From a virus: a stretch of 64,000 nt of DNA. The position numbers and the translations under genes are program-made. The stretch lies in the IMG/VR virus record IMGVR_UViG_3300024255_001088. One strand, given 5' to 3'. The notes under the pieces are model-generated. The model did no database searches, was not told the origin of the DNA, and worked only from the letters and a program-made list of their open reading frames with translations. Shown one piece after another: positions 32,723 through 53,688 of the stretch. The number at the start of each line of letters is the position of its first letter. The stretch's first letter is position 1.

Positions 32723-32930
32723 GATAGTACATAAAGTGGAAGGATTTTCAGACCTAATTAGGGATGAATCCTCTCATGCCATTATCAATACTAACGAAGA
32801 ACAGTATAGGTTGACAATGAAAAGAAGAGATTTTTTAAAAACTCAAAAGAATGAAATAAATACTCTTAAGAAAGAGGTAACAGAAATTAAAGACTTATTA
32901 AAAGATATAGTAGAGAAATTACATGGCTAA
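32709..32930 (+). CDS. Small coiled-coil hypothetical protein
   Basis: KVEG...LIRDESSHAIIN...EINTLKKEVTEIKDLL; follows the VrlC-like gene; start uncertain. Confidence 0.7.
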   Translation: MLLRKIVHKVEGFSDLIRDESSHAIINTNEEQYRLTMKRRDFLKTQKNEINTLKKEVTEIKDLLKDIVEKLHG

Positions 32931-35301
32931 AACAGTAGACAACTTCGCAACAATTGAAGACTTTAGAACTACCTATAACGAACTCGCATATGATGTGGGT
33001 GAAGTTTCTGGTCTAAGGGAAGGATTAAAATCTGGAAACAACGGAACACTAGTTGATGCTGTCAATGTTTTAGAAGACAAACAGTTTTTCTTCCAAGAGT
33101 TCATATTCGTTGCATCAACAAACCAAACACTATTTACAGGTAACGATGAGTTTGTAAATAACTTAATTTTTGTAAAAGATAAGATTCAAGTATTTAAAAA
33201 CGAAAGACATTTGATAGAAGATGTAGATTTCATTATTTCTAATCCTACTGGTACAGGTTCGCATGAGGGTATCACACTAACAGGTACTTATGCATCTGGT
33301 CAAGCAAATGCAATGTCTACTAACGATAGACTTCATGTATACTCATACACTGGTGCATTTGTAGGAACAAATATTGCAAACTCAGTTGCATCATTCTTCC
33401 AGAAAACAGTTGAGAACACAATCTATAACACCAATGCAAACGGTGTTATTATAAATGGAGATAGTTCATCACCAACAACTCTACTAGAATCTGGATATAC
33501 AATACAACTTGCAGGCAAGACATTTGCAGAAGATGATATCTTACTCACAACAGGCAAGACACTAACTGCACCTACTATCACTGATTCTACAATGAGTATC
33601 AACAGTGGTTCTATAACAGGCGCAGTCAACGGAACATTCTCAGGATTCTTAGATATCGAAGGTAACATCGATGTAAATGGTACATCTAATTTAGATGTTG
33701 TAGACATTGATGGTACAGTAAATATGGCATCAACACTAACAGTTGATGGCAATACAGACTTAAATGCAAACCTTACAGTAGACGGAAACACAACATTAGG
33801 TAACGCCGCTTCTGATACAATCACATTTACAGGTTATGCAAACTCTCATTTAAGACCAGAAACAACTAATACATATTCATTGGGTTTAACATCAAAGAGA
33901 TGGTCAAATGTATATTCAAACTTATCAAATGTATCAGGAACTGCAACAGTAGGAACTCTAACAGATGGTACATTGAGTATCACTGGTGGCGACATTACAA
34001 GTGTCGATGATATAACAGGTGACACAAACTCAGTATTCAAATCAGGTAGTTCTGTAGTTAATAACATTAAAAACTTTGCTGGTACTCACACAATACTAGA
34101 TACAACATCTGACCACGACAGTAATGCAAACGCAGGTTCTTTGACTGGTACAGTTTCAAGTATTGCAAACCACACAACACAAAACTTAACAGAACATAGT
34201 TCTAATCTATATTATACAGATGCAAGAGCAGACGCTAGAATCGCATTAAAGAATATAGATTATCTTGCAAATGTAACCAATTCAGCGCTTGCAAATGATG
34301 ATGTTTTATTGTATAATGGTAGTGCATGGGTGAATACGCCAATGCAAGAGAGAGTTGAAGATATCGCTGGTGCAATGTTCGCTGGTAATACTGAAACAGG
34401 TCTATCAGTCACATACAACGATACTACAGGCAAAACAAATCTAGTAGTAGACAATTCAACTTTCACATTAACAGGTGGAGTCACAGGTACTGCTACTCAG
34501 ACTGCAAAGGGTAATTTGACAATTGCAACTACTCTTAGAGATTTGACAAAAGGAGATATTACTGATACTCAACTTGCTCTAAATGATTTATACGATGTTT
34601 CAGATGGAAACAATACTGATGACCAAATCTTAGTACAAGACACTAATGGTACATGGTCGAATGTCACACTCACCGAGAAAGTACAAGACATTTCTGGTGG
34701 AATGTTCACAGGCAATACTGAAACAGGTATTACTGCAACATATCAAGATTCAGATGGAACTGTTGACCTTGTAGTAGACAATTCAATTTTCACATTAACA
34801 GGCAAAGTCACTGGTACCCAGACTCAGACTGCAAAGGGTAATGTATCTATTTCCACCTCAGTCAATCTCGCATTATCAGACTTACCATCAATCGACTTAG
34901 AAGATTTAGCAAATGTCAATAGTGGTGCAAATACTGGTCAAGTATTAGTTTGGAGTGGTAGTGCTTGGAACCCTGCTGACCAAGCTGGTAGTACTAGTAA
35001 TTTAACTGAAGACGCTTCTGCTGTATTCTTTACAGACAACAGAGTTGCAGATGTCTTTAAGGTGAGTGATAATGTTGAACTAAATAAAGGTATAAAAATC
35101 ACCTACAATGATAATCCAGAAGGTGGTACTAATACAACTACAGATGGTGAGATAACATTCGAAGCTTCAGTTAGTAATGGTATCGCTCTAGATGGTAACG
35201 ACATAGAGTTAGATTATAGTGTGATAACAGACTCAGATTTATCTAGTGGTCTTCCGAGTGGTAGTGGAAAAGAGATTGGTCATCTTTTCTTTTTAATATA
35301 G
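32923..35301 (+). CDS. Tail-fibre-like structural protein (fibre of cassette 1)
   Basis: T/G/S/D-rich beta repeats; duplicated VxDIxGxMFxGNTETG module; NLYYTDARAD; ends PSGSGKEIGHLFFLI. Confidence 0.75.
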   Translation: MAKTVDNFATIEDFRTTYNELAYDVGEVSGLREGLKSGNNGTLVDAVNVLEDKQFFFQEFIFVASTNQTLFTGNDEFVNNLIFVKDKIQVFKNERHLIEDVDFIISNPTGTGSHEGITLTGTYASGQANAMSTNDRLHVYSYTGAFVGTNIANSVASFFQKTVENTIYNTNANGVIINGDSSSPTTLLESGYTIQLAGKTFAEDDILLTTGKTLTAPTITDSTMSINSGSITGAVNGTFSGFLDIEGNIDVNGTSNLDVVDIDGTVNMASTLTVDGNTDLNANLTVDGNTTLGNAASDTITFTGYANSHLRPETTNTYSLGLTSKRWSNVYSNLSNVSGTATVGTLTDGTLSITGGDITSVDDITGDTNSVFKSGSSVVNNIKNFAGTHTILDTTSDHDSNANAGSLTGTVSSIANHTTQNLTEHSSNLYYTDARADARIALKNIDYLANVTNSALANDDVLLYNGSAWVNTPMQERVEDIAGAMFAGNTETGLSVTYNDTTGKTNLVVDNSTFTLTGGVTGTATQTAKGNLTIATTLRDLTKGDITDTQLALNDLYDVSDGNNTDDQILVQDTNGTWSNVTLTEKVQDISGGMFTGNTETGITATYQDSDGTVDLVVDNSIFTLTGKVTGTQTQTAKGNVSISTSVNLALSDLPSIDLEDLANVNSGANTGQVLVWSGSAWNPADQAGSTSNLTEDASAVFFTDNRVADVFKVSDNVELNKGIKITYNDNPEGGTNTTTDGEITFEASVSNGIALDGNDIELDYSVITDSDLSSGLPSGSGKEIGHLFFLI

Positions 35302-35311
35302 TGAACAAAAT

Positions 35312-36901
35312 ATGTCAGACGATATTTTTATAAAACATGATAAGAATGGTGGAACTTTTCAGCAACCCTTTTTAGCCAGAGTACCTGCAACCGGTCAACA
35401 ACCGAATATCGCACAAAGAATTTATCAGGTTACTACTCAAGGAACACAACCATTTACATATCAAAGTAGAACACCTACAAATGTTCAGACGCCTAGTAAT
35501 GCACAAAATCCAATAATTGCTCAAGGTATCGCACAAACAACTTATCAACATAGGTCGCCTGCTATATACACAAGTAGGGCGCCTTCAATATACAATATTC
35601 AAACACCTTCTACATATCAACATAGAAGTCCTTTGATATATCAACATAGGTCACCGTTTACTTATCAGTTAAATTATCAACATAGAGAACCTTCTACATA
35701 TCAACATAGAAGTCCTTTGATATATCGTACACCGACTCAGACTAGAACGCCTAGCATCTATACAAATAGACAACCTTTAACATATGAACATAGAAGTCCT
35801 TTTACATATGACCACAGAAGTCCTTTAACATATGACCACAGAAGTCCTTCTCGAACACCTTCTACATATCAAAATAGACAACCTTTAATATATGACCATA
35901 GGTCGCCTTATCAAAGTCCGTTTACTTATCAACATAGAAGTCCGTTGATATATGACCATAGGTCGCCTTCTACATACGATAATAGAGAACCTAGTATCTA
36001 TCAACATAGAAGTCCAGACACTTATCAGCATCAATCGCCGAGTACTTATCAGCATAGGTCACCGTCTCAGAGTCCGTTTACATACGACCATAGGTCACCA
36101 TTTACATATGACCATAGGTCACCGTCTCAGAGTCCGTTTACATACGACCATAGGTCACCATTTACATATGACCATAGGTCGCCTTATCAAAGTCCGTTTA
36201 CATACGACCATAGGTCACCATTTACATATGACCATAGGTCACCATTTACAACTCCAGTAATTGTTAATACACAAAGCTCAAGAAATGCACGAACACCGTT
36301 TATCTTTAGTGAATTACAACAGCAAAACATTGGTACTACGACTGCTCCATATGCTGAAGTTCATTGTGAGATGTCACTTATAGATTCTAGCGGTCGAGAA
36401 CCTTGGATTGTATTATATTGTGTTGAATCAAGTAATGATGTTAATGTATATGTTTATGCTTCAGCTGATGCATTTGGACTTCCTGATGCATATCTGAAAG
36501 AAACAAATACCGGCGGTACTCAAAATGGTCAGGATCAAAACATTGAAGAAAATAGTGATGTTCTTCTATACAAAATAGACGATGCTGGAACTAATTATTC
36601 TGTTGCTAGAAGTACCTCTACTCATGGTACCTTCAATGAGGGTACTCTGAGCGGAAACATTTCTGGAGGCACTGCAATAACTAGCACTTCTTGGACTTAT
36701 GGTACAACTAATGGTACTTTTACCAAGTGGAAATGTGATAATGCTAACTCTGGAGATGTTAAGGAGTACGAGACAACTAATACATTTACATTTACAAGTC
36801 CAGATGCTAATATGGGAACTCATACAATAACGCTAAAAGTGAATCTGTATTACGAAAACGAACAACCAGAAGAAGATGAAGAAGAAAATGACCAGGAGTA
36901 A
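35312..36901 (+). CDS. Repeat filament protein A (PxTYxHRS array plus ~200-aa C-terminal domain)
   Basis: 310-aa proline-punctuated array (aa 19-328), then a non-repetitive domain with an acidic tail. Confidence 0.85.
   Translation: MSDDIFIKHDKNGGTFQQPFLARVPATGQQPNIAQRIYQVTTQGTQPFTYQSRTPTNVQTPSNAQNPIIAQGIAQTTYQHRSPAIYTSRAPSIYNIQTPSTYQHRSPLIYQHRSPFTYQLNYQHREPSTYQHRSPLIYRTPTQTRTPSIYTNRQPLTYEHRSPFTYDHRSPLTYDHRSPSRTPSTYQNRQPLIYDHRSPYQSPFTYQHRSPLIYDHRSPSTYDNREPSIYQHRSPDTYQHQSPSTYQHRSPSQSPFTYDHRSPFTYDHRSPSQSPFTYDHRSPFTYDHRSPYQSPFTYDHRSPFTYDHRSPFTTPVIVNTQSSRNARTPFIFSELQQQNIGTTTAPYAEVHCEMSLIDSSGREPWIVLYCVESSNDVNVYVYASADAFGLPDAYLKETNTGGTQNGQDQNIEENSDVLLYKIDDAGTNYSVARSTSTHGTFNEGTLSGNISGGTAITSTSWTYGTTNGTFTKWKCDNANSGDVKEYETTNTFTFTSPDANMGTHTITLKVNLYYENEQPEEDEEENDQE
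35366..36295 (+). repeat. Coding repeat array A
   Basis: Mostly 24-bp units such as ccatttacatatgaccataggtca; all Pro-to-Pro units are of even length. Confidence 0.9.
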
Positions 36902-36907
36902 TGTGAT

Positions 36908-38002
36908 ATGCCAGTAGGACAACAACCATCCATATACCAACATCCTATTGCTACACAGGCGCAACAACCAGCGCAACAACCTAATATTAGAAACAAACAA
37001 CACCCTGTTATTAGAAACAAACAGGAAAGTAATCAAGAACCTAATATTAGAAACAAACAACACCCTGTTATTAGAAACAAACAGGAAAGTAATCAAAATC
37101 CTGTTATTAGAAACAAACAAGAACCTAATATTAGAAGCAAACAGGAAAGTAATCAAAATCCTGTTATTAGAAACAAACAACATCCGTTTATTAGAGACAG
37201 ACAAAATCCGGTTGAAAGAGCTCATCAAACTCCTTATACTGCAAATAAACAAAATCCTGTTATTAGAGACCAACAGGTGCCTAGTATAAGAAACGCCCAA
37301 CAGAATGCTCAAGAACCTAATATTAGAAGCGCTCAAAGTCCTTACATCGCAGATGCACAAGCGAATACGCAGAATCCTTTTATTAGAAATCAACAAGAAC
37401 CTAATATTAGAAGCAAACAGGAATCTGTTATAAGAAACAAACAGTCTGCTTATCAAGCGAGTAAACAAACTCCTTCTATAACAAGAACACCAGCGAGTCA
37501 ACAAGAACCTAATATTAGAAGCGCACAAACACCTTCTATTAGACAAGCGCTTAAAAATAAACAACAACCTAATATTAGAAGTCAACAAGAACCTAATATT
37601 AGAAATAAGAGAACACCTTCAGCACATAACGCACAATATCTTAATACTCACAATAGACAAGACCCTGTTATTAGAAGACAACCATTTACATATCCTTTCT
37701 CATATAGAAGTCCTTCTACTTACAGACATCCTACTATTGGTCAACAACCATATATTGCACAAGGTCAGGCTTCTTATAGTTTTCAACAAAACAGACAACA
37801 ACCATATGGATTCAGGTCTCCGTTTATATTTCAAGCAACAGAGAACTCTAATCGACCAATAACGCCAGTTGCAAAAGTGAAAGGAGTCTTTATAAAAGAT
37901 AGTGATGGTGTTGTAAAAGCTTCAACTAAAGTCTTTGTTAAGAAAGATAGTTCAACAGTTGAGAAAATTCATCAGGTACCTGCTTTGCCGTTTGACGAAT
38001 AG
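36908..38002 (+). CDS. Repeat filament protein B (PNIRxxQE array), mirror partner of A
   Basis: 310-aa array (aa 7-316); C-terminal VKGVFIK...KVFVKK motif. Confidence 0.85.
   Translation: MPVGQQPSIYQHPIATQAQQPAQQPNIRNKQHPVIRNKQESNQEPNIRNKQHPVIRNKQESNQNPVIRNKQEPNIRSKQESNQNPVIRNKQHPFIRDRQNPVERAHQTPYTANKQNPVIRDQQVPSIRNAQQNAQEPNIRSAQSPYIADAQANTQNPFIRNQQEPNIRSKQESVIRNKQSAYQASKQTPSITRTPASQQEPNIRSAQTPSIRQALKNKQQPNIRSQQEPNIRNKRTPSAHNAQYLNTHNRQDPVIRRQPFTYPFSYRSPSTYRHPTIGQQPYIAQGQASYSFQQNRQQPYGFRSPFIFQATENSNRPITPVAKVKGVFIKDSDGVVKASTKVFVKKDSSTVEKIHQVPALPFDE
36926..37855 (+). repeat. Coding repeat array B
   Basis: cctaatattagaaacaaacaa-type units. Confidence 0.9.
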
Positions 38003-42609: not shown

Positions 42610-42617
42610 TATAAATA
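42610..42617 (+). promoter_or_regulatory. T4-type late promoter
   Basis: TATAAATA. Confidence 0.75.
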
Positions 42618-42658: not shown

Positions 42659-42877
42659 ATGGCAACAACACAAACATTTGTAATCGAGTATGGGTTATCA
42701 GTAGGGTCATCTGAAGTCATAAATTCAAGTGGAAAAATCGTACCAGGTGCGTTATCCAATGTGGATTCAGACGACATAACAGAAGGCTCAACTAATCTGT
42801 ATATGACTACTTCAAGATTCAACTCTGCATTTGATACGAGACTATCTAACGCCACTATTGATGGAGGCACTATCTAA
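42659..42877 (+). CDS. Small fibre-associated protein
   Basis: FVIEYGLSVG, DDITEGSTNLY, ends IDGGTI. Confidence 0.7.
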   Translation: MATTQTFVIEYGLSVGSSEVINSSGKIVPGALSNVDSDDITEGSTNLYMTTSRFNSAFDTRLSNATIDGGTI

Positions 42878-45354
42878 TGACAAGTAAAAATTTCATAATC
42901 AAAAATGGTCTAACAGTAGGAACTACTGAGGTCATAACATCTGCTGGTTTAATTACTGGCGCAGCTGTCAACGAGGCAGTTGACGATAGAGTTGATTCTC
43001 TATTAACTGCTGGAACAGGTATCTCATTAACATATGATGACACTGCTGGCACACTAACAATTAACGGACAACAAGGTGACATCACAGGTGTGAACGCTGG
43101 TGCTGGTTTAACTGGTACTGCAAGTTCAGGTGATGCAACACTAAACATTGGTGCTGGTACAGGTATTACTGTAAATGCAGACGATATTGCAGTCAACTTC
43201 AAAGATGAAGATGACATGTCTTCAAACTCAGCAACTCATGCCGCTACTCAACAATCAATTAAAGCATATGTTGACGCTCAAGTTGCAACAGTTCCGACTG
43301 GAGACATAACAAGTGTAGTCTCAGGAACTGGTCTAACAGGTGGCGGAACAAGTGGCGATGTCACTGTAAATGTTGTTGCAGGTAATGGTCTTATCGCAAA
43401 CGCAGACGATGTGACAATCGATACTTCGATAACAGCAGATTTAACTACTGCACAAACTTTAACTAACAAAACATTAACGACTCCAATTCTAAATGGAACA
43501 ATTTCGGGTACTGCTGTCTTAGACCAAGACAACATGTCTTCTAATAGTAATACTCATCTTGCAACACAACAATCAATCAAGGCATATGTAGACTCTTCAG
43601 TTGCAGGTAAAGATAATACAGACGAGATTACAGAAGGTTCAAGTAACCTATACTTCACAAATGAAAGAGTAGACGATAGAGTAGATGCTCTACTAACTTC
43701 TGGTGTCAATGTCGCTATGACATATGACGATGCAAATGGAAGTTTAGAGATTAGAGTACCTTATGAGAATATACAAGATACAGTTGGCGCTCAGATTGCA
43801 ACCAATGGTTCACATACAGGTCTTACTGCAACATATGATGATGCAGGTGACGGCGCTGTAGACCTTGCAGTATCAACATCACATGTTAGGGGTTTAATAT
43901 CTGCTGGTGGTGACTTATCATACAACAGTTCAACAGGTGTAATTAGTTTCACAAACGATGCTGGTGATATCTCTTCAGTAGTTGCTGGAACTGGTATGAC
44001 TGGTGGGGGAACTTCTGGTGATGTGACAGTCAATGTTATTGGGGGAGACGGTATTACTGCAAACGCAAATGATATCGCATTGTCTTCTTCAGTCGCTGGT
44101 GATGGTCTTTCATTCTCAAGTGGTGTTCTTGCAGTAGGGGTTGACGATAGTTCTATAGAAACAAGTTCAGATACATTACAAGTGAAAGCACTTGGTGTCA
44201 CAAATGCCATGTTGGCAGGTTCAATTGCTGAAGGCAAACTTGCAGGTGGTATTTCAAACGCAAAACTTGCTAACTCATCCATAACAATAGACGGAAGTGC
44301 TGTTTCATTGGGTGGTTCAATAACTACTACAAATACACAACTTACACAAGAACAAGTCGAAGACTTTGTTGGTGGTATGTTAGATGGTACCGAAACAGGT
44401 ATCTCTGTATCATACGATGATACAAATGGTAATCTTGACTTTGTTATTGGCGCTGACGACATTACTAACGATATGTTGGCAGGGTCAATTAATCAATCCA
44501 AACTTGCAGGTTCAATTGCAAACGCAAAACTTGCTAATAGTACGATAACAATTGATGGACAATCAGTTGCATTGGGTGGTTCAGTCACAACAACTAACAC
44601 TCAATTATCAACAGAGAATGTACAAGATATCGCTGGGGCGATGTTCTCAAGTAATACTGAAAGTGGTATTACTGCAACATATCAAGATGCAGATGGTACA
44701 ATCGATTTGAATGTTAATGACCCAACAATATCCTTGACAGGCGATGTGACAGGTTCTGCTACAATGACCAATTTAGGTAATGTTAGTATCTCTACTACAG
44801 TCGCTGCTAACTCAGTCGCACTTGGAACAGATACAACAGGTAACTATGTCGCAGGTGTAAGTGCAGGAACTGGTGTCTCAGTAAGTGGTTCTGGAGAAGG
44901 TGCAACATCAACAGTATCTATTGGACAGGCAGTTGGAACATCAAGTAATGTTCAATTTGGAAACTTAGTTCTCACAGGCGACTTAACAGTTAATGGTTCA
45001 ACAGTAACCAACTCTTCAACAAATACAACTATCGAAGACCAACTTATAGAGTTAGGGACAGGTAATAGTGGTTCTGCTTCAGGCGATGCAGGTTTTGTTA
45101 TCGAAAGAGGAAGTGATGCCAATGTATTTATTGGTTGGGATGAAAGTGCTGATGCAGTCACATTCGGAACAGGAACATTTACAGGTGCATCAACAGGTGA
45201 TTTAACGATTACACCAAGTGCAGTAAACACTGGCGCATTGACAATTACAAATGCAACAAACAGTGGTGGCACAGCGAGAAACATACATCAGTCAACATCA
45301 GCTCCAGGCGGAAGTGATGGCGCAGTTGGCGATTTATGGGTTCTTTACTCTTAA
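42877..45354 (+). CDS. Long tail fibre protein (fibre of cassette 2)
   Basis: Repeated GDITSVxAGTGLTGGGTSGDVT, QQSIKAYVD and KLANS modules; ends STSAPGGSDGAVGDLWVLYS. Confidence 0.8.
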   Translation: MTSKNFIIKNGLTVGTTEVITSAGLITGAAVNEAVDDRVDSLLTAGTGISLTYDDTAGTLTINGQQGDITGVNAGAGLTGTASSGDATLNIGAGTGITVNADDIAVNFKDEDDMSSNSATHAATQQSIKAYVDAQVATVPTGDITSVVSGTGLTGGGTSGDVTVNVVAGNGLIANADDVTIDTSITADLTTAQTLTNKTLTTPILNGTISGTAVLDQDNMSSNSNTHLATQQSIKAYVDSSVAGKDNTDEITEGSSNLYFTNERVDDRVDALLTSGVNVAMTYDDANGSLEIRVPYENIQDTVGAQIATNGSHTGLTATYDDAGDGAVDLAVSTSHVRGLISAGGDLSYNSSTGVISFTNDAGDISSVVAGTGMTGGGTSGDVTVNVIGGDGITANANDIALSSSVAGDGLSFSSGVLAVGVDDSSIETSSDTLQVKALGVTNAMLAGSIAEGKLAGGISNAKLANSSITIDGSAVSLGGSITTTNTQLTQEQVEDFVGGMLDGTETGISVSYDDTNGNLDFVIGADDITNDMLAGSINQSKLAGSIANAKLANSTITIDGQSVALGGSVTTTNTQLSTENVQDIAGAMFSSNTESGITATYQDADGTIDLNVNDPTISLTGDVTGSATMTNLGNVSISTTVAANSVALGTDTTGNYVAGVSAGTGVSVSGSGEGATSTVSIGQAVGTSSNVQFGNLVLTGDLTVNGSTVTNSSTNTTIEDQLIELGTGNSGSASGDAGFVIERGSDANVFIGWDESADAVTFGTGTFTGASTGDLTITPSAVNTGALTITNATNSGGTARNIHQSTSAPGGSDGAVGDLWVLYS

Positions 45355-45386
45355 TAAATAGAATAGTATTTTAAGGACTATATAAT

Positions 45387-47489
45387 ATGGCGACAGGCTC
45401 ACAAAAGGTAAAAACACCAACAGGTTGGAATAGTACCCGAGGTGCATGGGTAAAAACAGACTCAGGCACATGGAAAGCTGCTGACCAGATTTATGTAAAA
45501 ACACCTACAGGTTGGAACAATGCTTCTGGACAACAGAGTGTTCAACAACCTTACCCTTATATCGCAAACGCACAAGAACCCAATATAAGAAACAAACAGA
45601 ATCCTTATCCTTATATTGCAAACGCACAAGAACCTAATATAAGAAACAAACAGAATCCTTATCCTTATATTGCTAATGCACAAGAACCTAATATTAGAGA
45701 TAGAAGACAACCTGCGATTTATCAAAATCCAGTAAATGCACAAGAACCTAATATTAGAAATCAACAAGAACCTAATATTAGGTCACAACAAGAACCTAAT
45801 ATTAGAGATGCTAGACAACCTGGTACATATCAACATAGGTCACCTAGTACATATAGAGACCCTCGTTCATATCAGAATCCTTCTACATATAATCATAGAA
45901 GTCCGTTGACATATCAACATAGAAGTCCGTTGACATATCAACATAGGTCACCATTTATATATCAACATAGGTCACCTTCTACATATAGTAATAGACAACC
46001 TAGTACATATCAACATAGGTCGCCTTATAGAAGTCCGTTTATCTATCAACATAGAAGTCCGTTGACATATGACCACAGGTCTCCTTTAATATATCGTAAT
46101 CCGTTTACTTATAATCACAGGTCTCCTTTAACATATGACCATAGGTCACCTTATCAAAGTCCATTTACTTACGACCATAGAAGTCCGTTGACATATCAAC
46201 ATAGGTCACCTTATAGAAGTCCGTTCACTTATCAACATAGAAGTCCGTTGACTTATCAACATCAGTCACCGAGTATTTACCAGAATCCAAGTACCTATCA
46301 GAACAGACAACCTAGTACTTATCAGCATCAGTCGCCAAGTATTTACCAGAATCCTAGTACTTACGACAATAGACAACCTAGTAGTTATCAGCATCAGTCG
46401 CCAAGTATTTACCAGAATCCGAGTACTTACAACAATAGACAACCTGGTACATATGACCATAGGTCACCTTATAGAAGTCCGTTCACTTATCAACATAGGT
46501 CACCATTTACATATGACCATAGGTCGCCGTTTACATATCGTAATCCGTTTACTTATAACCATAGGTCGCCTACTACATATAATCACAGGTCACCATATAC
46601 ATATGACCATAGGTCGCCTAGTACATACAATCACAGGTCACCTAGTACATATCAGGCAAGACAACCTAACGCTGCTAGAAACCCATTTAGTGCAAGACAA
46701 CCGTTCACTTATCAGGCAAGAGAACCTAATACATATAATCATAGGTCGCCTAGTACATACCAAGCAAGACAACCGAATAGTGCTAGACAACCATTTAGTG
46801 CGAGACAACCGTTCACTTATCAGGCAAGACAACCAAACTCTGCTAGAAACCCATTTAGTGGAAGAAATCCTTTCACTTATCAGGCAAGGTCGCCTTCGAT
46901 TGCAAACAATAGGTCTCCTGCAACTTATTCATTCAGAATGCCGTTTACCTTTGGTGGTGGAGGAGGAGGCGGAGGTTGCTTCGCTCCAGGTTCAATGATA
47001 TGGTTAGGCGATGGTTCACATGCACCTATCGAGTCATGTGTTGTTGGTCAATGGGTCATGTCTTGGAACGAAAGTACTAAATTACTTGAACCTAAGAGAA
47101 TACAACAAATTAATCCTCAGCCAATCAGTTCTATATGGGATATAACATTCTCAGATGGTAGAATTCTACAGATGACTGATACTCACCCATTGATGTTACC
47201 AAATGGTGAATGGGGTGCATTTGATATTGAGAAATCAGTAAAAGAACATTGGTGGATGGAAGATATAGAAACACATGAACTTAAAGTTGGAGATAGTATA
47301 TTCAGTATGTTAGATGGCATAATGTTTGATAGACAAGATGAAATGGGACTAGAGATAGTATCAATAGAAGAACACTCAGAAATGGAAGTTTATAACTTAA
47401 CTGGTATTGAAGATAACTCGAACTTCTTTGTTAATGGCATGTTAGCACATAACTTTAACAATCTACCTATTCCTGTAGGACAAAAATAA
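45387..47489 (+). CDS. Repeat filament protein C with C-terminal Hint domain
   Basis: N-terminal VKTPTGW repeats, 464-aa array (aa 55-518), Gly8 linker, Hint domain. Confidence 0.88.
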   Translation: MATGSQKVKTPTGWNSTRGAWVKTDSGTWKAADQIYVKTPTGWNNASGQQSVQQPYPYIANAQEPNIRNKQNPYPYIANAQEPNIRNKQNPYPYIANAQEPNIRDRRQPAIYQNPVNAQEPNIRNQQEPNIRSQQEPNIRDARQPGTYQHRSPSTYRDPRSYQNPSTYNHRSPLTYQHRSPLTYQHRSPFIYQHRSPSTYSNRQPSTYQHRSPYRSPFIYQHRSPLTYDHRSPLIYRNPFTYNHRSPLTYDHRSPYQSPFTYDHRSPLTYQHRSPYRSPFTYQHRSPLTYQHQSPSIYQNPSTYQNRQPSTYQHQSPSIYQNPSTYDNRQPSSYQHQSPSIYQNPSTYNNRQPGTYDHRSPYRSPFTYQHRSPFTYDHRSPFTYRNPFTYNHRSPTTYNHRSPYTYDHRSPSTYNHRSPSTYQARQPNAARNPFSARQPFTYQAREPNTYNHRSPSTYQARQPNSARQPFSARQPFTYQARQPNSARNPFSGRNPFTYQARSPSIANNRSPATYSFRMPFTFGGGGGGGGCFAPGSMIWLGDGSHAPIESCVVGQWVMSWNESTKLLEPKRIQQINPQPISSIWDITFSDGRILQMTDTHPLMLPNGEWGAFDIEKSVKEHWWMEDIETHELKVGDSIFSMLDGIMFDRQDEMGLEIVSIEEHSEMEVYNLTGIEDNSNFFVNGMLAHNFNNLPIPVGQK
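45549..46940 (+). repeat. Coding repeat array C
   Basis: 66 Pro-initiated units of 2, 4, 6 or 8 aa. Confidence 0.9.
46977..47453 (+). other. Hint (intein-like / BIL) auto-processing domain
   Basis: Block A CFAPGSMI, block B TDTHP, block F VYNL, block G FFVNGMLAHN; +1 residue is Phe. Confidence 0.9.
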
Positions 47490-47529
47490 TGAAGATGATA
47501 ATTAAATTAAGAGTAGGGAGTAAAATCTA

Positions 47530-48996
47530 ATGCCACAGCAACCTCTAATTGGACTTGCTCAATCGCCAAGTACTTCTAATGTGCAAACTCCGTATATTGC
47601 TAATGGCCAGCAACCTTATACTGGTCAACAACCATATACATATCAGTCGCCATATATTGCATCTGGTCAGACTCCTTATACTGGTCAGACTCCTTATACT
47701 TACCAGAGTCCTTATATTGCGAATAATCAACAACCCAATATTAGAAGTTATCAAAGTCCGTATATTGCGAATGGTCAGACTCCTTATACTGGTCAACAAC
47801 CTTATACTTTCCAGAGTCCATACATTGCGAATAATCAAGAACCTAATATAAGGAACAATCAGGAACCCAATATTAGAAGCATACAAGAACCTAATATTAG
47901 AAACCAACAAGAACCTAATATTAGAGATGCTCAGTCACCTAGTAATGCTCAGCAACCTACAATTAAGAACAAACAAGAACCTAATATTCGTTCAGCGCAA
48001 CAGTCAGCACAAGAACCAAATATCAGAAACTTTCAGACTCCTTACATTGCTAATGCACAAGGGGCTAGTGCAGCTCAAGAACCTAATATCAGAAATGCAC
48101 AAACACCTTATATTGCAAACAGACAAAACACTGCAAATGCACAAGAACCTAATATTAGAAACAGACAAACACCTTATATTGCAAACAGACAAACCACTTC
48201 AAATGCACAAGAACCAAACATAAGGTCACAACAAGAACCTAATATTCGTTCAGCGCAAGCGTCAGCACAAGAACCAAACATAAGGTCACAACAAGAACCT
48301 AATATTAGAAACAAACAGCAGAGTGCTCAACAACCTACTATTAAGAACCAACAGGAACCTAATATTAGAGATGCTCAGTCACCTAGTAATGCTCAGCAAC
48401 CTAATATTAGAAGTCAACAAGAACCTAATATTCGTTCAGGTCAAACGGTAACGCAAGAACCTAATATTAGAGACAGACAAACACCTTATATTGCTAATGC
48501 ACAAAATCCGTTTATTAGAAATGCTCAAGAACCAAACATAAGGTCACAACAAGAACCTAATATTAGAGCTCAACAAGAACCTAATATTAGAAACAGACAA
48601 ACAACAGCGAGCTATCAGAATCCTGTAAATGCTCAGAATCCGTTTATAAGAAATAATCAGACTCCATTTACATATGACCATAGAAGTCCGTTGACATATG
48701 ACCACAGGTCTCCTTTAACATATGACCATAGAAGTCCGTTTACTTACAGAAATCCTGCAAATAGTCAGACACCTCTTACATATCAACATCAGAGTCCTTC
48801 TACATATGCTAGACAAGGTCAAACACCAACGACTTATCAACATAGAAGTCCTTCTACATATGCTAGACAAGGTCAGACACCAACGACTTATCAACATAGG
48901 TCACCTAGTACATATGCTAGACAAGGTCAAACACCTGTTATCCGTTGGGATGGTTCATTGTCACAAACATGGCCAGGAACACCTGTTAATTCTTAA
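47530..48996 (+). CDS. Repeat filament protein D, mirror partner of C
   Basis: 464-aa array (aa 5-468), C-terminal RWDGSLSQTWP. Confidence 0.88.
   Translation: MPQQPLIGLAQSPSTSNVQTPYIANGQQPYTGQQPYTYQSPYIASGQTPYTGQTPYTYQSPYIANNQQPNIRSYQSPYIANGQTPYTGQQPYTFQSPYIANNQEPNIRNNQEPNIRSIQEPNIRNQQEPNIRDAQSPSNAQQPTIKNKQEPNIRSAQQSAQEPNIRNFQTPYIANAQGASAAQEPNIRNAQTPYIANRQNTANAQEPNIRNRQTPYIANRQTTSNAQEPNIRSQQEPNIRSAQASAQEPNIRSQQEPNIRNKQQSAQQPTIKNQQEPNIRDAQSPSNAQQPNIRSQQEPNIRSGQTVTQEPNIRDRQTPYIANAQNPFIRNAQEPNIRSQQEPNIRAQQEPNIRNRQTTASYQNPVNAQNPFIRNNQTPFTYDHRSPLTYDHRSPLTYDHRSPFTYRNPANSQTPLTYQHQSPSTYARQGQTPTTYQHRSPSTYARQGQTPTTYQHRSPSTYARQGQTPVIRWDGSLSQTWPGTPVNS
47542..48933 (+). repeat. Coding repeat array D
   Basis: 55 Pro-initiated units of 6-14 aa. 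Confidence 0.9.
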
Positions 48997-49033: not shown

Positions 49034-50581
49034 ATGAGCGTAAAATCAGACTCACTCGAGCACACAAAGGAACTTCTCAAAGATTGGGATCCAACAGATA
49101 AGAACACACATGTTCAGTTGGGTTCTTTTGATGTATCAAAAGATTATAAAGAAACAGAAGCATATAAATCTTTAAAATGGGTGACAGCGAACAAAACAGG
49201 AAAATTAAAACAGGTCAAATGGGGTGATATGACTAAGTTAATCAAGGAACAAAAGTTTCTTGGTTGGAACAAACTACAATCTCATTCATGGGCATATCAT
49301 TACTTTCTTTCTAAAGGATACACTGCACCACCCGAAAATCCAAAACCAGGAATTGCAGGTATGGATTTTAAAAATTCAAATGATGAATATCAAAAGATAG
49401 AAGAATTCACAGATACTAAGTTAAGCGAACAACAAGATTCTAGTCTTAATGCTGTATATTATCATGGTGCAAAGGCACATTGGTTAGTCGATAGTATCAG
49501 AAAAGAAGGTCTATGGAATGCAATTCAAGGCACTGTATCTACAGCAGGTATGAACTCCAGAGATGAACGAATGTATCAGTTATCTATACATCCAGGTTCT
49601 GTTCGTTCAGGTGTTTTCGAAACTATGAATGACCCAGACTTAGATTTATGGATATGGGATAACCACGATGCTATACCTCTTCCAGAAACACCTATAGATG
49701 AAATGATTGACGAAATGAAGTCGCAACTTGTAGAAAGAAATGCAGACCACTACTCAATGTCGTTTTCATTCACTCGTGGATATTTAGAAATACATAGTGA
49801 CTTATTGAAGATGAACTTCAGAGGAGATGTGACAGACTTCAATAAAAAAGTAAATAAACTTTCTGCTGGCAAACCCTTGACAATCTATGTCGGATATGAT
49901 AGTAGACACAAAGACATTGCAGAACTAAGTGCTAAATGTCTTAAGAGTAGTATATTATTTGGAGCAGGTCATGGTGATGTACATGATATATTAGGAGATT
50001 GGACTCCTGAGATAAAGTTTCTTGACATATCAAAGATTCCAGAGTATAATAGAGAGTATGCAGCTCAATCAACAGAGTTCACATATAGTAGATTCTTAAT
50101 TCCTTACTTAGAAAACTATGAAGGATTTAGTATTTTTATTGATGATGATATACTATTCAATGAAAGTATCTTACCAATGTTCTACTATTTAGATTTAGAT
50201 GATGCAGTTGCATGTGTTCAGTATGATTTTGATACTTATGCTGAAACAAAATTTAACGGTGAAAAGAATGTATCTTATCCTAAAAAACTTTGGTCATCAT
50301 TAATGATATTTAATAATGGTCACGAAGACTGTAAGAAACTTACGCCAGAAGTTATCAATACTGAAAGTGGTAAATATCTACATCAATTTGAATGGACAGA
50401 TAAGATATCAGAAATACCAGAATGGTATGTTATAACTGAGGGGCATGATACGCAAGAAGAAAAGTGGCGTGCTTGTGCTATACATTATACTAGAGGTGGT
50501 CCTTGGATTGAAGGCATGGATACTTCTGAAATAGAACACCTAAATATGTATGAAAGATTTAAAAATAAACATCAAAACTAG
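49034..50581 (+). CDS. Two-domain protein: ParB/Srx-like N-terminal domain plus GT-A glycosyltransferase
   Basis: IYVGYDSR, STEFTYSRFLIPYL, FIDDD (DxD), WSSLMIFN, LHQFEW, HYTRGGPW. Confidence 0.8.
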   Translation: MSVKSDSLEHTKELLKDWDPTDKNTHVQLGSFDVSKDYKETEAYKSLKWVTANKTGKLKQVKWGDMTKLIKEQKFLGWNKLQSHSWAYHYFLSKGYTAPPENPKPGIAGMDFKNSNDEYQKIEEFTDTKLSEQQDSSLNAVYYHGAKAHWLVDSIRKEGLWNAIQGTVSTAGMNSRDERMYQLSIHPGSVRSGVFETMNDPDLDLWIWDNHDAIPLPETPIDEMIDEMKSQLVERNADHYSMSFSFTRGYLEIHSDLLKMNFRGDVTDFNKKVNKLSAGKPLTIYVGYDSRHKDIAELSAKCLKSSILFGAGHGDVHDILGDWTPEIKFLDISKIPEYNREYAAQSTEFTYSRFLIPYLENYEGFSIFIDDDILFNESILPMFYYLDLDDAVACVQYDFDTYAETKFNGEKNVSYPKKLWSSLMIFNNGHEDCKKLTPEVINTESGKYLHQFEWTDKISEIPEWYVITEGHDTQEEKWRACAIHYTRGGPWIEGMDTSEIEHLNMYERFKNKHQN

Positions 50582-53680: not shown

Positions 53681-53688
53681 TATAAATA
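53681..53688 (+). promoter_or_regulatory. T4-type late promoter
   Basis: TATAAATA upstream of gp13. Confidence 0.8.

What the first reader, a model, noticed from the sequence alone, without database searches (positions are those of the whole stretch)
45387..48996. Two adjacent genes encode mirror-image repeat proteins: a candidate sequence-coded antiparallel 'protein zipper' (pair C/D, 464 aa each)
Seen: splitting both proteins at prolines gives arrays of identical length (C aa 55-518, D aa 5-468, 464 aa each). D read N to C has unit lengths 8,8,8,6,6,8,6,6,8,8,8,6,6,8,8,8,8,8,6,8,12,8,14,8,14,8,14,8,12,8,12,8,8,6,8,12,8,8,8,8,8,14,6,8,8,8,8,6,6,8,10,8,10,8,10. C read C to N gives the same series with no gap (12=8+4, 14=8+6, 10=8+2). 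All units have even length, consistent with beta-strand periodicity. C switches from PNIR-type to TYxHRS-type units at exactly the mirrored position where D makes that switch, so opposite types always face each other. Inference: the two chains pair along their full length as an antiparallel beta-ribbon, effectively a giant beta-hairpin split over two genes, up to about 150 nm at 3.3 A per residue. I know of no described phage appendage built this way.
Basis: partly seen in the sequence, partly recalled or inferred. Interest (0 to 1): 0.97.

Follow-up and report, generated by a model that had tools for sequence, protein, structure and literature searches.

The report
Mirror-complementary phage fibre protein pair
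Two neighbouring genes of an uncultured marine T4-like phage encode proline-punctuated repeat proteins that match unit for unit, in length and in opposite type, when one is read backwards; dozens of related gene pairs keep this match through compensating changes, which points to a long two-protein antiparallel fibre held in register by an amino-acid pairing code that I could not find described.

Summary
Array C (aa 55-518) and array D (aa 5-468) are both 464 aa long. With iC+iD=524, 56 of D's 59 prolines face a proline of C. Unit-order shuffles give 20.6±2.9, the best parallel register 32, and non-cognate chains at most 21. The PNIR-to-TYxHRS switch is mirrored exactly (C P145, D P379).

There is no inverted DNA similarity, and both genes are under purifying selection. 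A second pair in the window (A/B) and 34 further distinct pairs from viral contigs obey the same rule over spans of 248-512 aa:
- Indels are compensated at mirrored places.
- Facing 8-mers are of opposite type 601 times against 11.
- Cross-chain covariation is antidiagonal and confined to even positions.
- Pro-Pro spacings are even 3217 times against 4.

Even 96%-identical orthologues show paired replacements at facing residues.

Best reading: C and D pair directly and antiparallel, probably as a beta-type duplex, forming the shaft of a virion fibre in the host-recognition cluster. C ends in a Gly run and a Hint autoprocessing domain at the distal tip.

The fold, stoichiometry and virion location are untested, and structure predictors gave nothing usable. 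Follow-up agents of this scan confirmed the same phenomenon earlier on other genomes.

The parts
45387..47489 (+). Gene C (chain 1, 700 aa): proximal cap, 464-aa repeat array, Gly8 run, Hint domain
   Evidence: ORF and translation. pN/pS is 0.23 against the L009 orthologue.
45387..45548 (+). C aa 1-54: conserved N-terminal cap (MATGSQKVKTPTGWN..., three VKT..G.W-like repeats)
   Evidence: Nearly invariant in 18 type-I loci (alignment A1). About 20 representative clusters carry it at their N-terminus. In the mirror register it lies beside D's C-terminal tail, with W43 facing W481.
45549..46940 (+). C array, aa 55-518: PNIR/PYIA-type units (aa 55-144), then TYxHRS/TYQARQ-type units (aa 145-518)
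   Evidence: Pro-to-Pro parse; mirror statistics; matched tandem DNA repeats.
46953..46976 (+). Gly8 run (aa 523-530) just before the Hint nucleophile Cys531
   Evidence: Translation. The GGxG-C-F motif is invariant in 9 diverged loci.
46977..47453 (+). Hint (intein-like/BIL-like) domain, aa 531-689, followed by an 11-aa tail (47454-47486)
   Evidence: Pfam PF14890 E=2.5e-7, below the gathering score. phmmer hit to the DnaB mini-intein 4o1r, E=1.3e-4. The family profile hits solved Hint/BIL/intein chains down to E=1.7e-10. Cys1, the T..H-P block and the terminal His-Asn are invariant; the +1 residue is F/Y/G/A.
47530..48996 (+). Gene D (chain 2, 488 aa): starts at the distal tip (MPQQ), 464-aa array, conserved 20-aa tail
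   Evidence: ORF and translation. A GGGAG box lies upstream. pN/pS is 0.41.
47542..48933 (+). D array, aa 5-468: PYIA/PNIR-type units (aa 5-378), then TYxHRS-type units (aa 379-468)
48934..48993 (+). D aa 469-488: conserved C-terminal tail PVIRWDG..WPGTP..S
   Evidence: Conserved in 18 loci (alignment A2).
45549..45698 (+). Tandem DNA repeat in C (period 54 x 2.8) whose mirror partner in D is 48781-48935 (period 54 x 2.9)
   Evidence: TRF. Two further matched sets: C 46251-46454 (66 x 3.1) with D 48005-48215 (66 x 3.2), and C 46617-46834 (108 x 2.0) with D 47653-47849 (108 x 1.8).
35312..36901 (+). Gene A (chain 1 of the second, type-II pair; 529 aa): array aa 19-328, then an orphan domain of about 200 aa
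36908..38002 (+). Gene B (chain 2 of the second pair; 364 aa): array aa 7-316, then a KVKGVFIKD... tail. Same frame as A, separated by one TAA and two codons.
   Evidence: Mirror iA+iB=336: 31 of 39 prolines coincide, z=9.3.
42877..45354 (+). Upstream fibre-like gene (825 aa, PHROG 697 structural protein); always precedes type-I pairs; paralogue of 32923-35301, which precedes A/B
49034..50581 (+). Downstream gene with a GT8 glycosyltransferase-like domain; syntenic in most related loci (context only)

Best explanation
C and D are the two strands of a sequence-coded antiparallel protein duplex. C runs from a conserved virion-proximal cap out to the distal tip. D starts at the tip and runs back, so unit k of C lies against unit n-k of D.

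Partner choice and register are set by two things: a barcode of unit lengths (8, 6, 4 and 2 residues between prolines) and a binary unit code in which PNIR/PYIA-type units face TYxHRS/TYQARQ-type units. Residue rules lie on the even-numbered face:
- H6 faces R/K4, and A/N6 faces A4.
- S8 faces N2, and Q/Y8 faces Y2.
- F2 faces A/G6, and L2 faces Q6/E8.

The strict two-residue periodicity suggests extended beta-type strands, with the prolines kept in one phase. The duplex may be bundled further.

The duplex is the shaft of a fibre of the phage's host-recognition cluster. Chain 1's C-terminus carries the variable distal module. In C this is a Gly8 run plus a Hint domain, which most likely cleaves itself off at Gly530|Cys531 or transfers the Gly C-terminus to a nucleophile.

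Shown: the mirror match, its conservation, compensated indels, the pairing code, and Hint homology with intact catalytic residues. Inferred: direct contact, beta conformation, stoichiometry, virion location, which end is proximal, and Hint chemistry.
For: 1. Mirror match in C/D: 56 of 59 prolines coincide, z=12.2 against unit shuffles, and only in the mirror orientation and only with the cognate partner.
2. The independent pair A/B matches too, z=9.3. A/B and C/D do not cross-match.
3. In 36 distinct adjacent pairs, spans 248-512 aa, the cognate mirror match averages 0.85 against 0.48 for non-cognates. Landmark-defined lengths agree within 4 aa over 270-520 aa in 8 distinct type-I patterns.
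4. Indel events are compensated at the same mirrored coordinates. L020 vs L022: -10 at 0, 16->6 at 306, -20 at 386, in both chains. W vs L020: -56, -22, +62 in both. L057 vs L077: +12, +18, +20 in both.
5. Matched tandem DNA repeats (periods 54, 66 and 108, with near-equal copy numbers) lie at mirrored places in C and D.
6. Facing 8-mers are heterotypic 601 times against 11, and facing 6-mers 328 against 43, including loci where each chain alternates types.
7. Mutual information across chains (300 unique unit pairs) is confined to even-even positions and is antidiagonal: T2-N6 1.06 bits, T2-N8 0.74, T6-N4 0.82, T8-N2 0.70. It halves for units offset by 1-3.
8. Between 96%-identical orthologues (window vs L009), 12 of 21 changed D residues face a changed C residue, against 3.5±1.8 expected. 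Example: D Y78T+A80K with C A444H+E446S.
9. Pro-Pro spacings are even 3217 times against 4.
10. There is no inverted DNA similarity, and selection is purifying.
11. Context is the T4-like structural module, with a conserved three-gene arrangement next to fibre-like genes (PMC7029224).
12. Conserved modules sit at one physical end, while swapped or variable modules sit at chain 1's C-terminus.
13. The Hint profile hits solved structures, and the catalytic residues are invariant.
Against: - There is no physical or structural evidence of contact, beta structure or stoichiometry. All support is evolutionary.
- Both arrays are basic (pI 10.3 and 9.9). An isolated duplex would therefore carry a large net positive charge and has almost no hydrophobic core, which argues for a higher-order assembly or another partner.
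- Exceptions exist. L036 and L062 have unmatched copy numbers of a 44-aa block, and L021 has a local 8,8->10,7 change. These are metagenome assemblies of tandem repeats, so collapse is possible but unproven.
- The exact residue register (P facing P, or shifted by 2) cannot be fixed from covariation, because positions within each unit are themselves coupled.
- No virion proteomics exists, and no cultured relative carries the genes.
- No fused single-chain form was found (weak evidence).
Confidence: 0.68

Rival explanations
1. C and D run antiparallel but do not form a simple two-chain duplex. They are co-aligned in a larger assembly, for example wrapped on or interleaved with a third periodic partner such as the trimeric fibre-like protein encoded just upstream, or as a (CD)3 bundle. 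Part of the 'pairing' would then be mediated by the third component.
For: A paralogous fibre-like gene of about 800 aa always precedes each pair. Both arrays are basic and polar with little hydrophobic core. Phage fibres are usually trimeric (general knowledge).
Against: One-to-one heterotypic unit pairing and residue-level antidiagonal covariation between C and D are most simply explained by direct contact. The upstream protein's length does not track array length: it is about 800 aa while arrays range from 248 to 512 aa.
Confidence: 0.15
2. It is an antiparallel two-chain stalk, but not beta. The chains adopt another extended conformation, such as a PPII-like or mixed helix, as in the antigen I/II stalk where an alpha-helix and a PPII helix intertwine.
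For: Proline is regularly spaced and the arrays are very polar. A long two-segment antiparallel stalk exists in AgI/II adhesins; this lead came from earlier finding e1-5703444 and from my own knowledge, and was not tested here.
Against: Spacings are even 3217 times against 4, and only 972 of 3221 are multiples of 3. That fits a two-residue repeat, not the three-residue PPII repeat or a 3.6-residue helix. Pro is only 1 residue in 8, and there are no Ala-rich heptads. Covariation is restricted to alternate positions.
Confidence: 0.08
3. The pair is not a virion fibre. The Q/N/Y/R-rich complementary chains would form some other material, such as an adhesive or amyloid-like matrix or a cell-surface structure made during infection.
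For: The composition resembles Q/N/Y-rich self-associating sequences. There is no virion proteomics.
Against: The genes sit inside the late structural and host-recognition module, between baseplate and neck/terminase genes, in conserved synteny with fibre-like genes. They have a conserved end and a swapped distal domain, like receptor-binding fibres. There is no signal peptide (by inspection).
Confidence: 0.07
4. The mirror pattern is a by-product of how the genes arose, for example D derived from the antisense strand of C or from an inverted duplication, and has no structural meaning.
For: Antisense translation of a repeat gene would reverse the order of unit lengths (in principle).
Against: All BLASTN matches between C and D are plus/plus. 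Reverse-complement identity at the mirror offset is at most 0.35 against a background of about 0.30. The antisense frames of C are full of stops. Proline faces proline, which complementary codons cannot give in frame. Ongoing compensated indels and substitutions need selection on the protein pair.
Confidence: 0.02

Closest known systems
Intramolecular antiparallel coiled-coil arms of SMC/Rad50/MukB proteins (my own knowledge)
   Same: Two long segments run antiparallel and pair along their whole length. Their lengths co-vary, and interruptions sit at mirrored positions.
   Different: Those are alpha-helical heptad repeats within one polypeptide. Here two separate gene products carry proline-punctuated 8/6-residue units, a two-residue periodicity and a heterotypic unit code.
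Streptococcal antigen I/II (SpaP/SspB) stalk (lead from earlier finding e1-5703444; my own knowledge; not tested here)
   Same: A long, thin stalk made by antiparallel association of two different repeat regions (A and P) whose repeat numbers match.
   Different: It is one polypeptide, with an alpha-helix wound around a PPII helix. Here there is no Ala-rich heptad or Pro-rich triplet sequence, and the spacing is even rather than triplet.
Needle domain of the T4 long tail fibre tip protein gp37 (PDB 2XGF; my own knowledge)
   Same: A phage fibre in which strands run out to the tip and back, so that ascending and descending segments pair antiparallel. It lies in the same module of a T4-like genome.
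   Different: In gp37 both segments belong to one chain of a homotrimer, are short, carry HxH iron sites, and have no repeat code. No sequence similarity was found.
Triple-stranded beta-helix of T4 gp5 (octapeptide VxGxxxxx repeats; PMC3004832 listed, not read here; repeat and fold from my own knowledge)
   Same: Eight-residue repeats that each form one beta-strand in a long phage fibre-like structure.
   Different: gp5 is a parallel homotrimer with Gly/Val motifs. Here there are two different chains, in mirror order, with Pro at unit borders and units of 6, 4 and 2 residues that must be matched by the partner.
Designed or natural heterospecific coiled-coil pairs and collagen heterotrimers (my own knowledge)
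   Same: Partner choice and register are encoded by a simple repeat-position code. Orthogonal pairs can coexist, as A/B and C/D do in one phage.
   Different: The secondary structure and geometry differ. No natural beta-type equivalent over hundreds of residues was found in the literature searched.
Bacterial intein-like (BIL) and Hedgehog-type Hint domains (2lwy, 6y75, 4o1r)
   Same: C's last 170 aa have the Hint signature: Cys1 after Gly, the T..H block and a terminal His-Asn. There is no splicing nucleophile at +1, as in BIL/Hog domains that cleave or transfer rather than splice.
   Different: The domain sits at the distal tip of a repeat-fibre chain with only an 11-aa tail after it. Its substrate or acceptor is unknown, and it is absent from many related pairs.

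Membership tests
Hint (Hedgehog/intein) superfamily: C aa 531-689 | Sequence or profile similarity to solved Hint domains | tested here: met
   The family profile A3 hits 6y75 (E=1.7e-10), 8w20 (6e-9), the BIL domain 2lwy (2.8e-7) and DnaB mini-inteins (about 5e-6). The single sequence hits 4o1r at 1.3e-4. Pfam PF14890 scores 31.1 bits, below its cut-off of 35.8.
Hint (Hedgehog/intein) superfamily: C aa 531-689 | N-terminal Cys/Ser nucleophile, block-B T-x-x-H, and C-terminal His-Asn | tested here: met
   Cys531 follows the Gly run. TDTH-P/TGGH-P and the terminal H-N are invariant across 9 loci at 33-77% identity.
Canonical splicing intein | Cys/Ser/Thr at +1 of a C-extein, and a host protein re-joined by splicing | tested here: not met
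   The +1 residue is F, Y, G or A in all 9 loci, and only 4-30 residues follow. It is therefore a cleaving or transferring Hint (BIL/Hog-like), not an intein.
Hint superfamily | Autoprocessing activity at Gly530|Cys531 | not testable with these tools
   This needs expression and mass spectrometry.
Described phage tail-fibre or structural protein families (Pfam, PHROGs, NCBIfam) | Profile match of the repeat arrays | tested here: not met
   C, D, A and B match no PHROG and no NCBIfam family. The only Pfam hits are Hint and a chance-level Cementoin hit. All 374 database homologues are unnamed. INPHARED has no match apart from a spurious low-complexity hit.
Collagen-like triple helix | Gly at every third residue, with triplet periodicity | tested here: not met
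   Gly is 2% of the arrays. Spacings are even (3217 against 4), and only 972 of 3221 are multiples of 3.
gp5-type triple-stranded beta-helix | VxGxxxxx octapeptides in a parallel homotrimer | tested here: not met
   The 8-residue period is shared, but the motif is P-x-[IT]-[RY]-x-x-[QR]-x. Two different chains are needed, and they match in mirror order, not parallel order.
Antigen I/II-type alpha/PPII stalk | Ala-rich heptad repeats pairing with Pro-rich PPII repeats | tested here: not met
   Array composition is P 13.5% (1 in 8) and A 8%, with no heptads and even periodicity. The fold itself is not testable here.
Sense-antisense (complementary-strand) peptide pair | One gene similar to the reverse complement of the other | tested here: not met
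   All BLASTN hits are plus/plus, and reverse-complement identity is at most 0.35 at any offset.
T4-like myovirus structural / host-recognition module (context) | Baseplate wedge, sheath, portal and terminase genes flanking fibre genes | tested here: met
   PHROG hits to baseplate gp6-like, gp8-like, sheath, portal and terminase proteins. The portal is 55% identical to Methylophilales phage Melnitz and 54% to Pelagibacter phage Mosig. The layout matches the pelagimyophage host-recognition cluster (PMC7029224).

The most novel reading that the evidence does not exclude
Nature has a protein analogue of base pairing. Two unit types and a small set of facing-residue rules, together with a barcode of unit lengths, specify partner and register of an antiparallel beta-type duplex hundreds of residues (about 100-170 nm) long. 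Orthogonal duplexes (A/B and C/D) coexist in one virion, and the two genes co-evolve through matched block duplications. In Hint-bearing members, the Gly-thioester made at the hairpin tip may be used to close or decorate the tip covalently.
Probability: 0.5. Interest if true: 0.95.

Novelty: categorically new. Interest (0 to 1): 0.9.

Why it matters
If the two chains do zip together as the covariation implies, this would be the first natural, sequence-readable pairing code for long antiparallel protein strands.

- It is a design principle so far known only for coiled coils and collagen.
- It would give protein engineers programmable, orthogonal, length-defined beta-type rods.
- For phage biology it defines a widespread but unannotated type of fibre in abundant marine T4-like phages, in the pelagimyophage/methylophage neighbourhood. 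The swappable distal modules are relevant to host recognition.
- It poses an evolutionary question that can now be tested: how do two separate genes keep acquiring matched tandem duplications and compensatory substitutions?
- The Hint domain at the tip adds a possible case of autoprocessing or protein ligation in virion assembly.

Tried and rejected
- **Complex prediction.** C aa 1-164 plus D aa 360-488, each with an 18-row alignment, gave no verdict: the score was under the mark and no controls were run. This is neither for nor against binding.
- **AlphaFold2 on a single-chain read-through.** I read through the L040 pair (same frame; TAA and TAG read as Gly; 343 aa spanning the distal hairpin). 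Mean pLDDT was 36.7 with no secondary structure, so it is uninformative.
- **AlphaFold2 on A's distal domain.** With a 2-row alignment, pLDDT was 38, also uninformative. I ran no fold search on such models.
- **Named relatives.** Megablast and tblastn against 50,697 phage records gave nothing except a Vibrio phage low-complexity match on the strand opposite to its annotation, which I discarded. All 374 protein homologues are unnamed. The ESM Atlas gave only sub-threshold repeat-protein look-alikes and holds no model.
- **Fused single-chain forms (855-2440 aa).** None found; weak evidence.
- **Identifying the proximal cap motif.** Its distant multi-repeat hits gave only noise in Pfam.
- **Literature.** Searches for the motifs and for two-chain beta-ribbon fibres returned nothing relevant.
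- **Antisense or inverted-repeat origin.** Tested and rejected.
- **Electrostatic complementarity between the chains.** Rejected: both are basic.
- **Late promoter.** TATAAATA boxes are not enriched in the window (9 against 7.4 expected). The box at 42610, upstream of the three-gene module, is only suggestive.

Full report
**1. The observation**

C (45387-47489, 700 aa) and D (47530-48996, 488 aa) are adjacent + strand ORFs. D P5..P469 and C P55..P519 both span 464 aa, and every unit is even. C read backwards gives D's series, with D's 12-, 14- and 10-residue units matched by 8+4, 8+6 and 8+2 in C.

With the mapping iC+iD=524, 56 of D's 59 prolines face a proline of C. The best parallel register gives 32, the cross combinations A-D and C-B at most 20, and self-mirrors at most 34. 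Shuffling the order of C's units 2000 times gives 20.6±2.9 (maximum 33), so z=12.2. C changes from PNIR-type to TYxHRS-type units at P145 and D at P379, and 145+379=524. The 90-aa and 374-aa sections therefore face sections of the opposite type.

**2. Not a DNA artefact, and really coding**

All BLASTN matches between the two genes are plus/plus, reflecting shared unit types. Reverse-complement identity never exceeds 0.35, and C's antisense frames are closed. D is therefore not an inverted or antisense copy of C. Against the 96%-identical orthologues in L009, pN/pS is 0.23 for C and 0.41 for D, arrays included.

**3. A second pair in the same window**

A (35312-36901) and B (36908-38002) obey the same rule with a different pattern: iA+iB=336, 31 of 39 prolines coincide, z=9.3. 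A/B and C/D do not match each other, so one phage carries two orthogonal pairs.

**4. Relatives**

A scan of viral contigs with D returned 73 loci. In every locus long enough, two adjacent repeat ORFs are present.

- Together with the window's two pairs this gives 36 distinct pairs, with mirror spans of 248-512 aa. In each, 67-96% of the sparser chain's prolines coincide (mean 0.85). Non-cognate combinations average 0.48, and parallel registers are much lower than the mirror register.
- Lengths measured from independent landmarks agree within 4 aa over 270-520 aa in eight distinct type-I patterns. The landmarks are first PYPY to the Gly run in chain 1, and Met to P..RWD in chain 2.
- Comparing related loci event by event shows compensation at the same mirrored coordinates. 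L020 vs L022: -10 at 0, 16->6 at 306, -20 at 386, in both chains. Window vs L020: -56, -22, +62 in both. L057 vs L077: +12, +18, +20 in both.
- In the window itself, tandem DNA repeats of period 54, 66 and 108 occur at mirrored places of C and D, with near-equal copy numbers (2.8/2.9, 3.1/3.2, 2.0/1.8).
- Exceptions: L036 and L062 differ between chains by one or two copies of a 44-aa (132-nt) tandem block, and L021 has a local 8,8->10,7 change. These are short-read assemblies of tandem repeats, so collapse is plausible. They could also be real intermediates.

**5. A pairing code**

I classed units by Y/F at P+3 ('T' type, TYxHRS/TYQARQ) against the rest ('N' type, PNIR/PYIA).

- Facing 8-mers are heterotypic 601 times and homotypic 11 times. 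Facing 6-mers are heterotypic 328 times against 43. This includes loci in which both chains alternate between types.
- Over 300 unique facing 8-mer pairs, cross-chain mutual information is confined to even-numbered positions and is antidiagonal: T2-N6 1.06 bits, T2-N8 0.74, T6-N4 0.82, T6-N2 0.83, T8-N2 0.70, T8-N4 0.69.
- The rules read: H6 faces R/K4; A/N6 faces A4; S8 faces N2; Q/Y8 faces Y2; F2 faces A/G6; L2 faces Q6/E8.
- The information roughly halves when the partner unit is offset by 1-3 units. Early positions of one unit therefore talk to late positions of the facing unit, as expected for antiparallel strands.
- Between the window and L009, 12 of 21 replaced D residues face a replaced C residue at shift -2, 0 or +2, against 3.5±1.8 expected (none of 5000 permutations reached 12). 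One example is D Y78T+A80K together with C A444H+E446S, which turns a PYIA/QARE pair into a PTIK/QHRS pair.
- The exact register (P opposite P, or shifted by two) cannot be settled, because positions within each unit are coupled.

**6. Conformation**

Across all distinct arrays, Pro-Pro spacings are even 3217 times and odd 4 times, and only 972 are multiples of three. A strict two-residue repeat fits extended beta-type strands in which proline always occupies the same phase. For a two-stranded antiparallel ribbon that would be the non-hydrogen-bonded site (inference). It does not fit PPII, collagen or alpha-helix.

The arrays are rich in Q, N, R, Y, T, S and P. Both are basic (pI 10.3 and 9.9). 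The pairing is therefore not electrostatic, and an isolated duplex has little hydrophobic core. For that reason I leave open a higher-order bundle.

**7. The ends**

Two subfamilies differ in their end modules.

- Type I (C/D) has a nearly invariant 54-aa cap at chain 1's N-terminus and a PVIRWDG..WPGTP tail at chain 2's C-terminus.
- Type II (A/B) has MSDDIF/MSEEIF at chain 1's N-terminus and a KVKGVFI... tail on chain 2.
- In the mirror register these conserved pieces lie together at one end. In C/D, W43 faces W481.

The other end is variable. Chain 1 ends in a Hint domain, a short aromatic tail, or unrelated domains of about 155-235 aa. Chain 2 starts within a few residues of its Met. The window's A and its L076 orthologue are about 93% identical through the array but have unrelated 200-aa C-terminal domains. 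Such a swapped cassette is typical of the receptor-binding tips of phage fibres. I therefore infer that the conserved end is virion-proximal and chain 1's C-terminus is distal.

**8. The Hint domain**

After the array, C has PFTF, eight glycines, Cys531 and about 160 residues ending in His-Asn, followed by 11 residues.

- A profile of nine such domains (33-77% identity) hits solved Hint/BIL/intein structures down to E=1.7e-10. The single sequence hits a DnaB mini-intein.
- The Gly-Gly-x-Gly-Cys-Phe start, the T..H-P block and the terminal His-Asn are invariant. The +1 residue is F, Y, G or A, never a nucleophile.
- It is therefore a cleaving or transferring Hint domain (BIL/Hedgehog-like), not a splicing intein. 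Its likely action is an N-S acyl shift at Gly530|Cys531, followed by hydrolysis or transfer. This is inferred.
- Hint-less relatives end a few residues after a Gly run, like the predicted cleavage product.
- In the mirror register this chemistry happens next to D's N-terminus.

**9. Context**

The window is part of a 140-kb IMG/VR virus record with T4-type baseplate, sheath, portal and terminase genes. The portal is 55% identical to Methylophilales phage Melnitz and 54% to Pelagibacter phage Mosig.

The pairs lie in what Zaragoza-Solas et al. call the host-recognition cluster of pelagimyophages. That paper does not mention them (PMC7029224).

Each pair follows a paralogous fibre-like gene of about 800 aa (E=3e-26 between 32923-35301 and 42877-45354). 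The order fibre-like gene, chain 1, chain 2, GT8-like gene is conserved in related loci. A and B are separated by a single TAA and two codons, and C and D by 40 nt containing a GGGAG box. This fits co-expression.

**10. What is known**

No Pfam, PHROG or NCBIfam family covers the arrays. No cultured phage record carries them. All 374 homologues found are unnamed metagenomic proteins. Full-text searches for the motifs, and for two-chain antiparallel beta fibres, found nothing relevant.

The nearest concepts are:
- the antiparallel coiled-coil arms of SMC/Rad50;
- the antigen I/II stalk;
- the up-and-down strands of the gp37 needle;
- the octapeptide beta-helix of gp5;
- heterospecific coiled coils.

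None is a two-gene, beta-periodic array pair with mirror-complementary units.

Earlier notes of this scan describe the same phenomenon in this genome and in other genomes, and two follow-ups reached the same reading. I re-derived the claims independently on this window. I added the event-level indel compensation, the orthologue substitution test, the matched DNA repeats, the even/odd count, the end-module anatomy and the Hint membership test.

**11. Verdict**

Direct antiparallel, in-register pairing of C with D is the best-supported explanation (about 0.65-0.7). Its beta-duplex geometry, oligomeric state, virion role and Hint chemistry are inferences awaiting experiment. All three structure-prediction attempts were uninformative and count neither way.

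Noticed in passing
window 32923-38002 and 42877-48996: The unit is a three-gene module present twice: a fibre-like protein of about 800 aa (the two copies are paralogues, E=3e-26), then chain 1, then chain 2. The fibre-like protein may be a third partner or the attachment site of the duplex.
   Followed up: partly
window 36314-36898 (A aa 335-529) vs L076:4367-5980: A and its L076 orthologue are about 93% identical through the array but have unrelated C-terminal domains of about 200 aa. A's domain has a single homologue in 5.8 billion proteins (P0056, 84%). This looks like a swapped distal, possibly receptor-binding, cassette.
   Followed up: partly
L036:2326-5609, L062:4463-7614 (compare L027, L040): Four related loci combine chain 1 and chain 2 with n or n-2 (n-1 in L036) copies of a 44-aa tandem block. 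L027 and L040 are matched, while L036 and L062 are unmatched. These are either assembly collapse or snapshots of one-sided duplications awaiting compensation.
   Followed up: partly
window 49034-50581: The gene after D has a GT8 glycosyltransferase-like domain (Pfam E=2.4e-5) and is syntenic with type-I pairs in most loci. GT8 includes glycogenin, which glucosylates tyrosine (my own knowledge), and the T-type units have an invariant Tyr. Glycosylation of the fibre is an untested possibility.
   Followed up: no
window 42610-42617: A T4-late-promoter-like TATAAATA box lies upstream of the fibre-like gene that heads the C/D module, and the next one on the + strand is at 53681. Such boxes are not enriched in the window overall (9 against 7.4 expected).
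   Followed up: partly
window 45387-45548 and 37865-37999: The proximal modules of both pair types contain short repeats of the form hydrophobic-[YF]-V-K-x-x-x-G-x-[WV]-K. In type I they are on chain 1's N-terminus, in type II on chain 2's C-terminus. That is the same physical end in the mirror model.
   Followed up: no
window 47454-47486: The 11 residues after the Hint His-Asn end in PVGQK, which resembles the N-terminal MPVGQQ of B and MPIGQ.. of many chain 2 proteins. The meaning is unknown.
   Followed up: no
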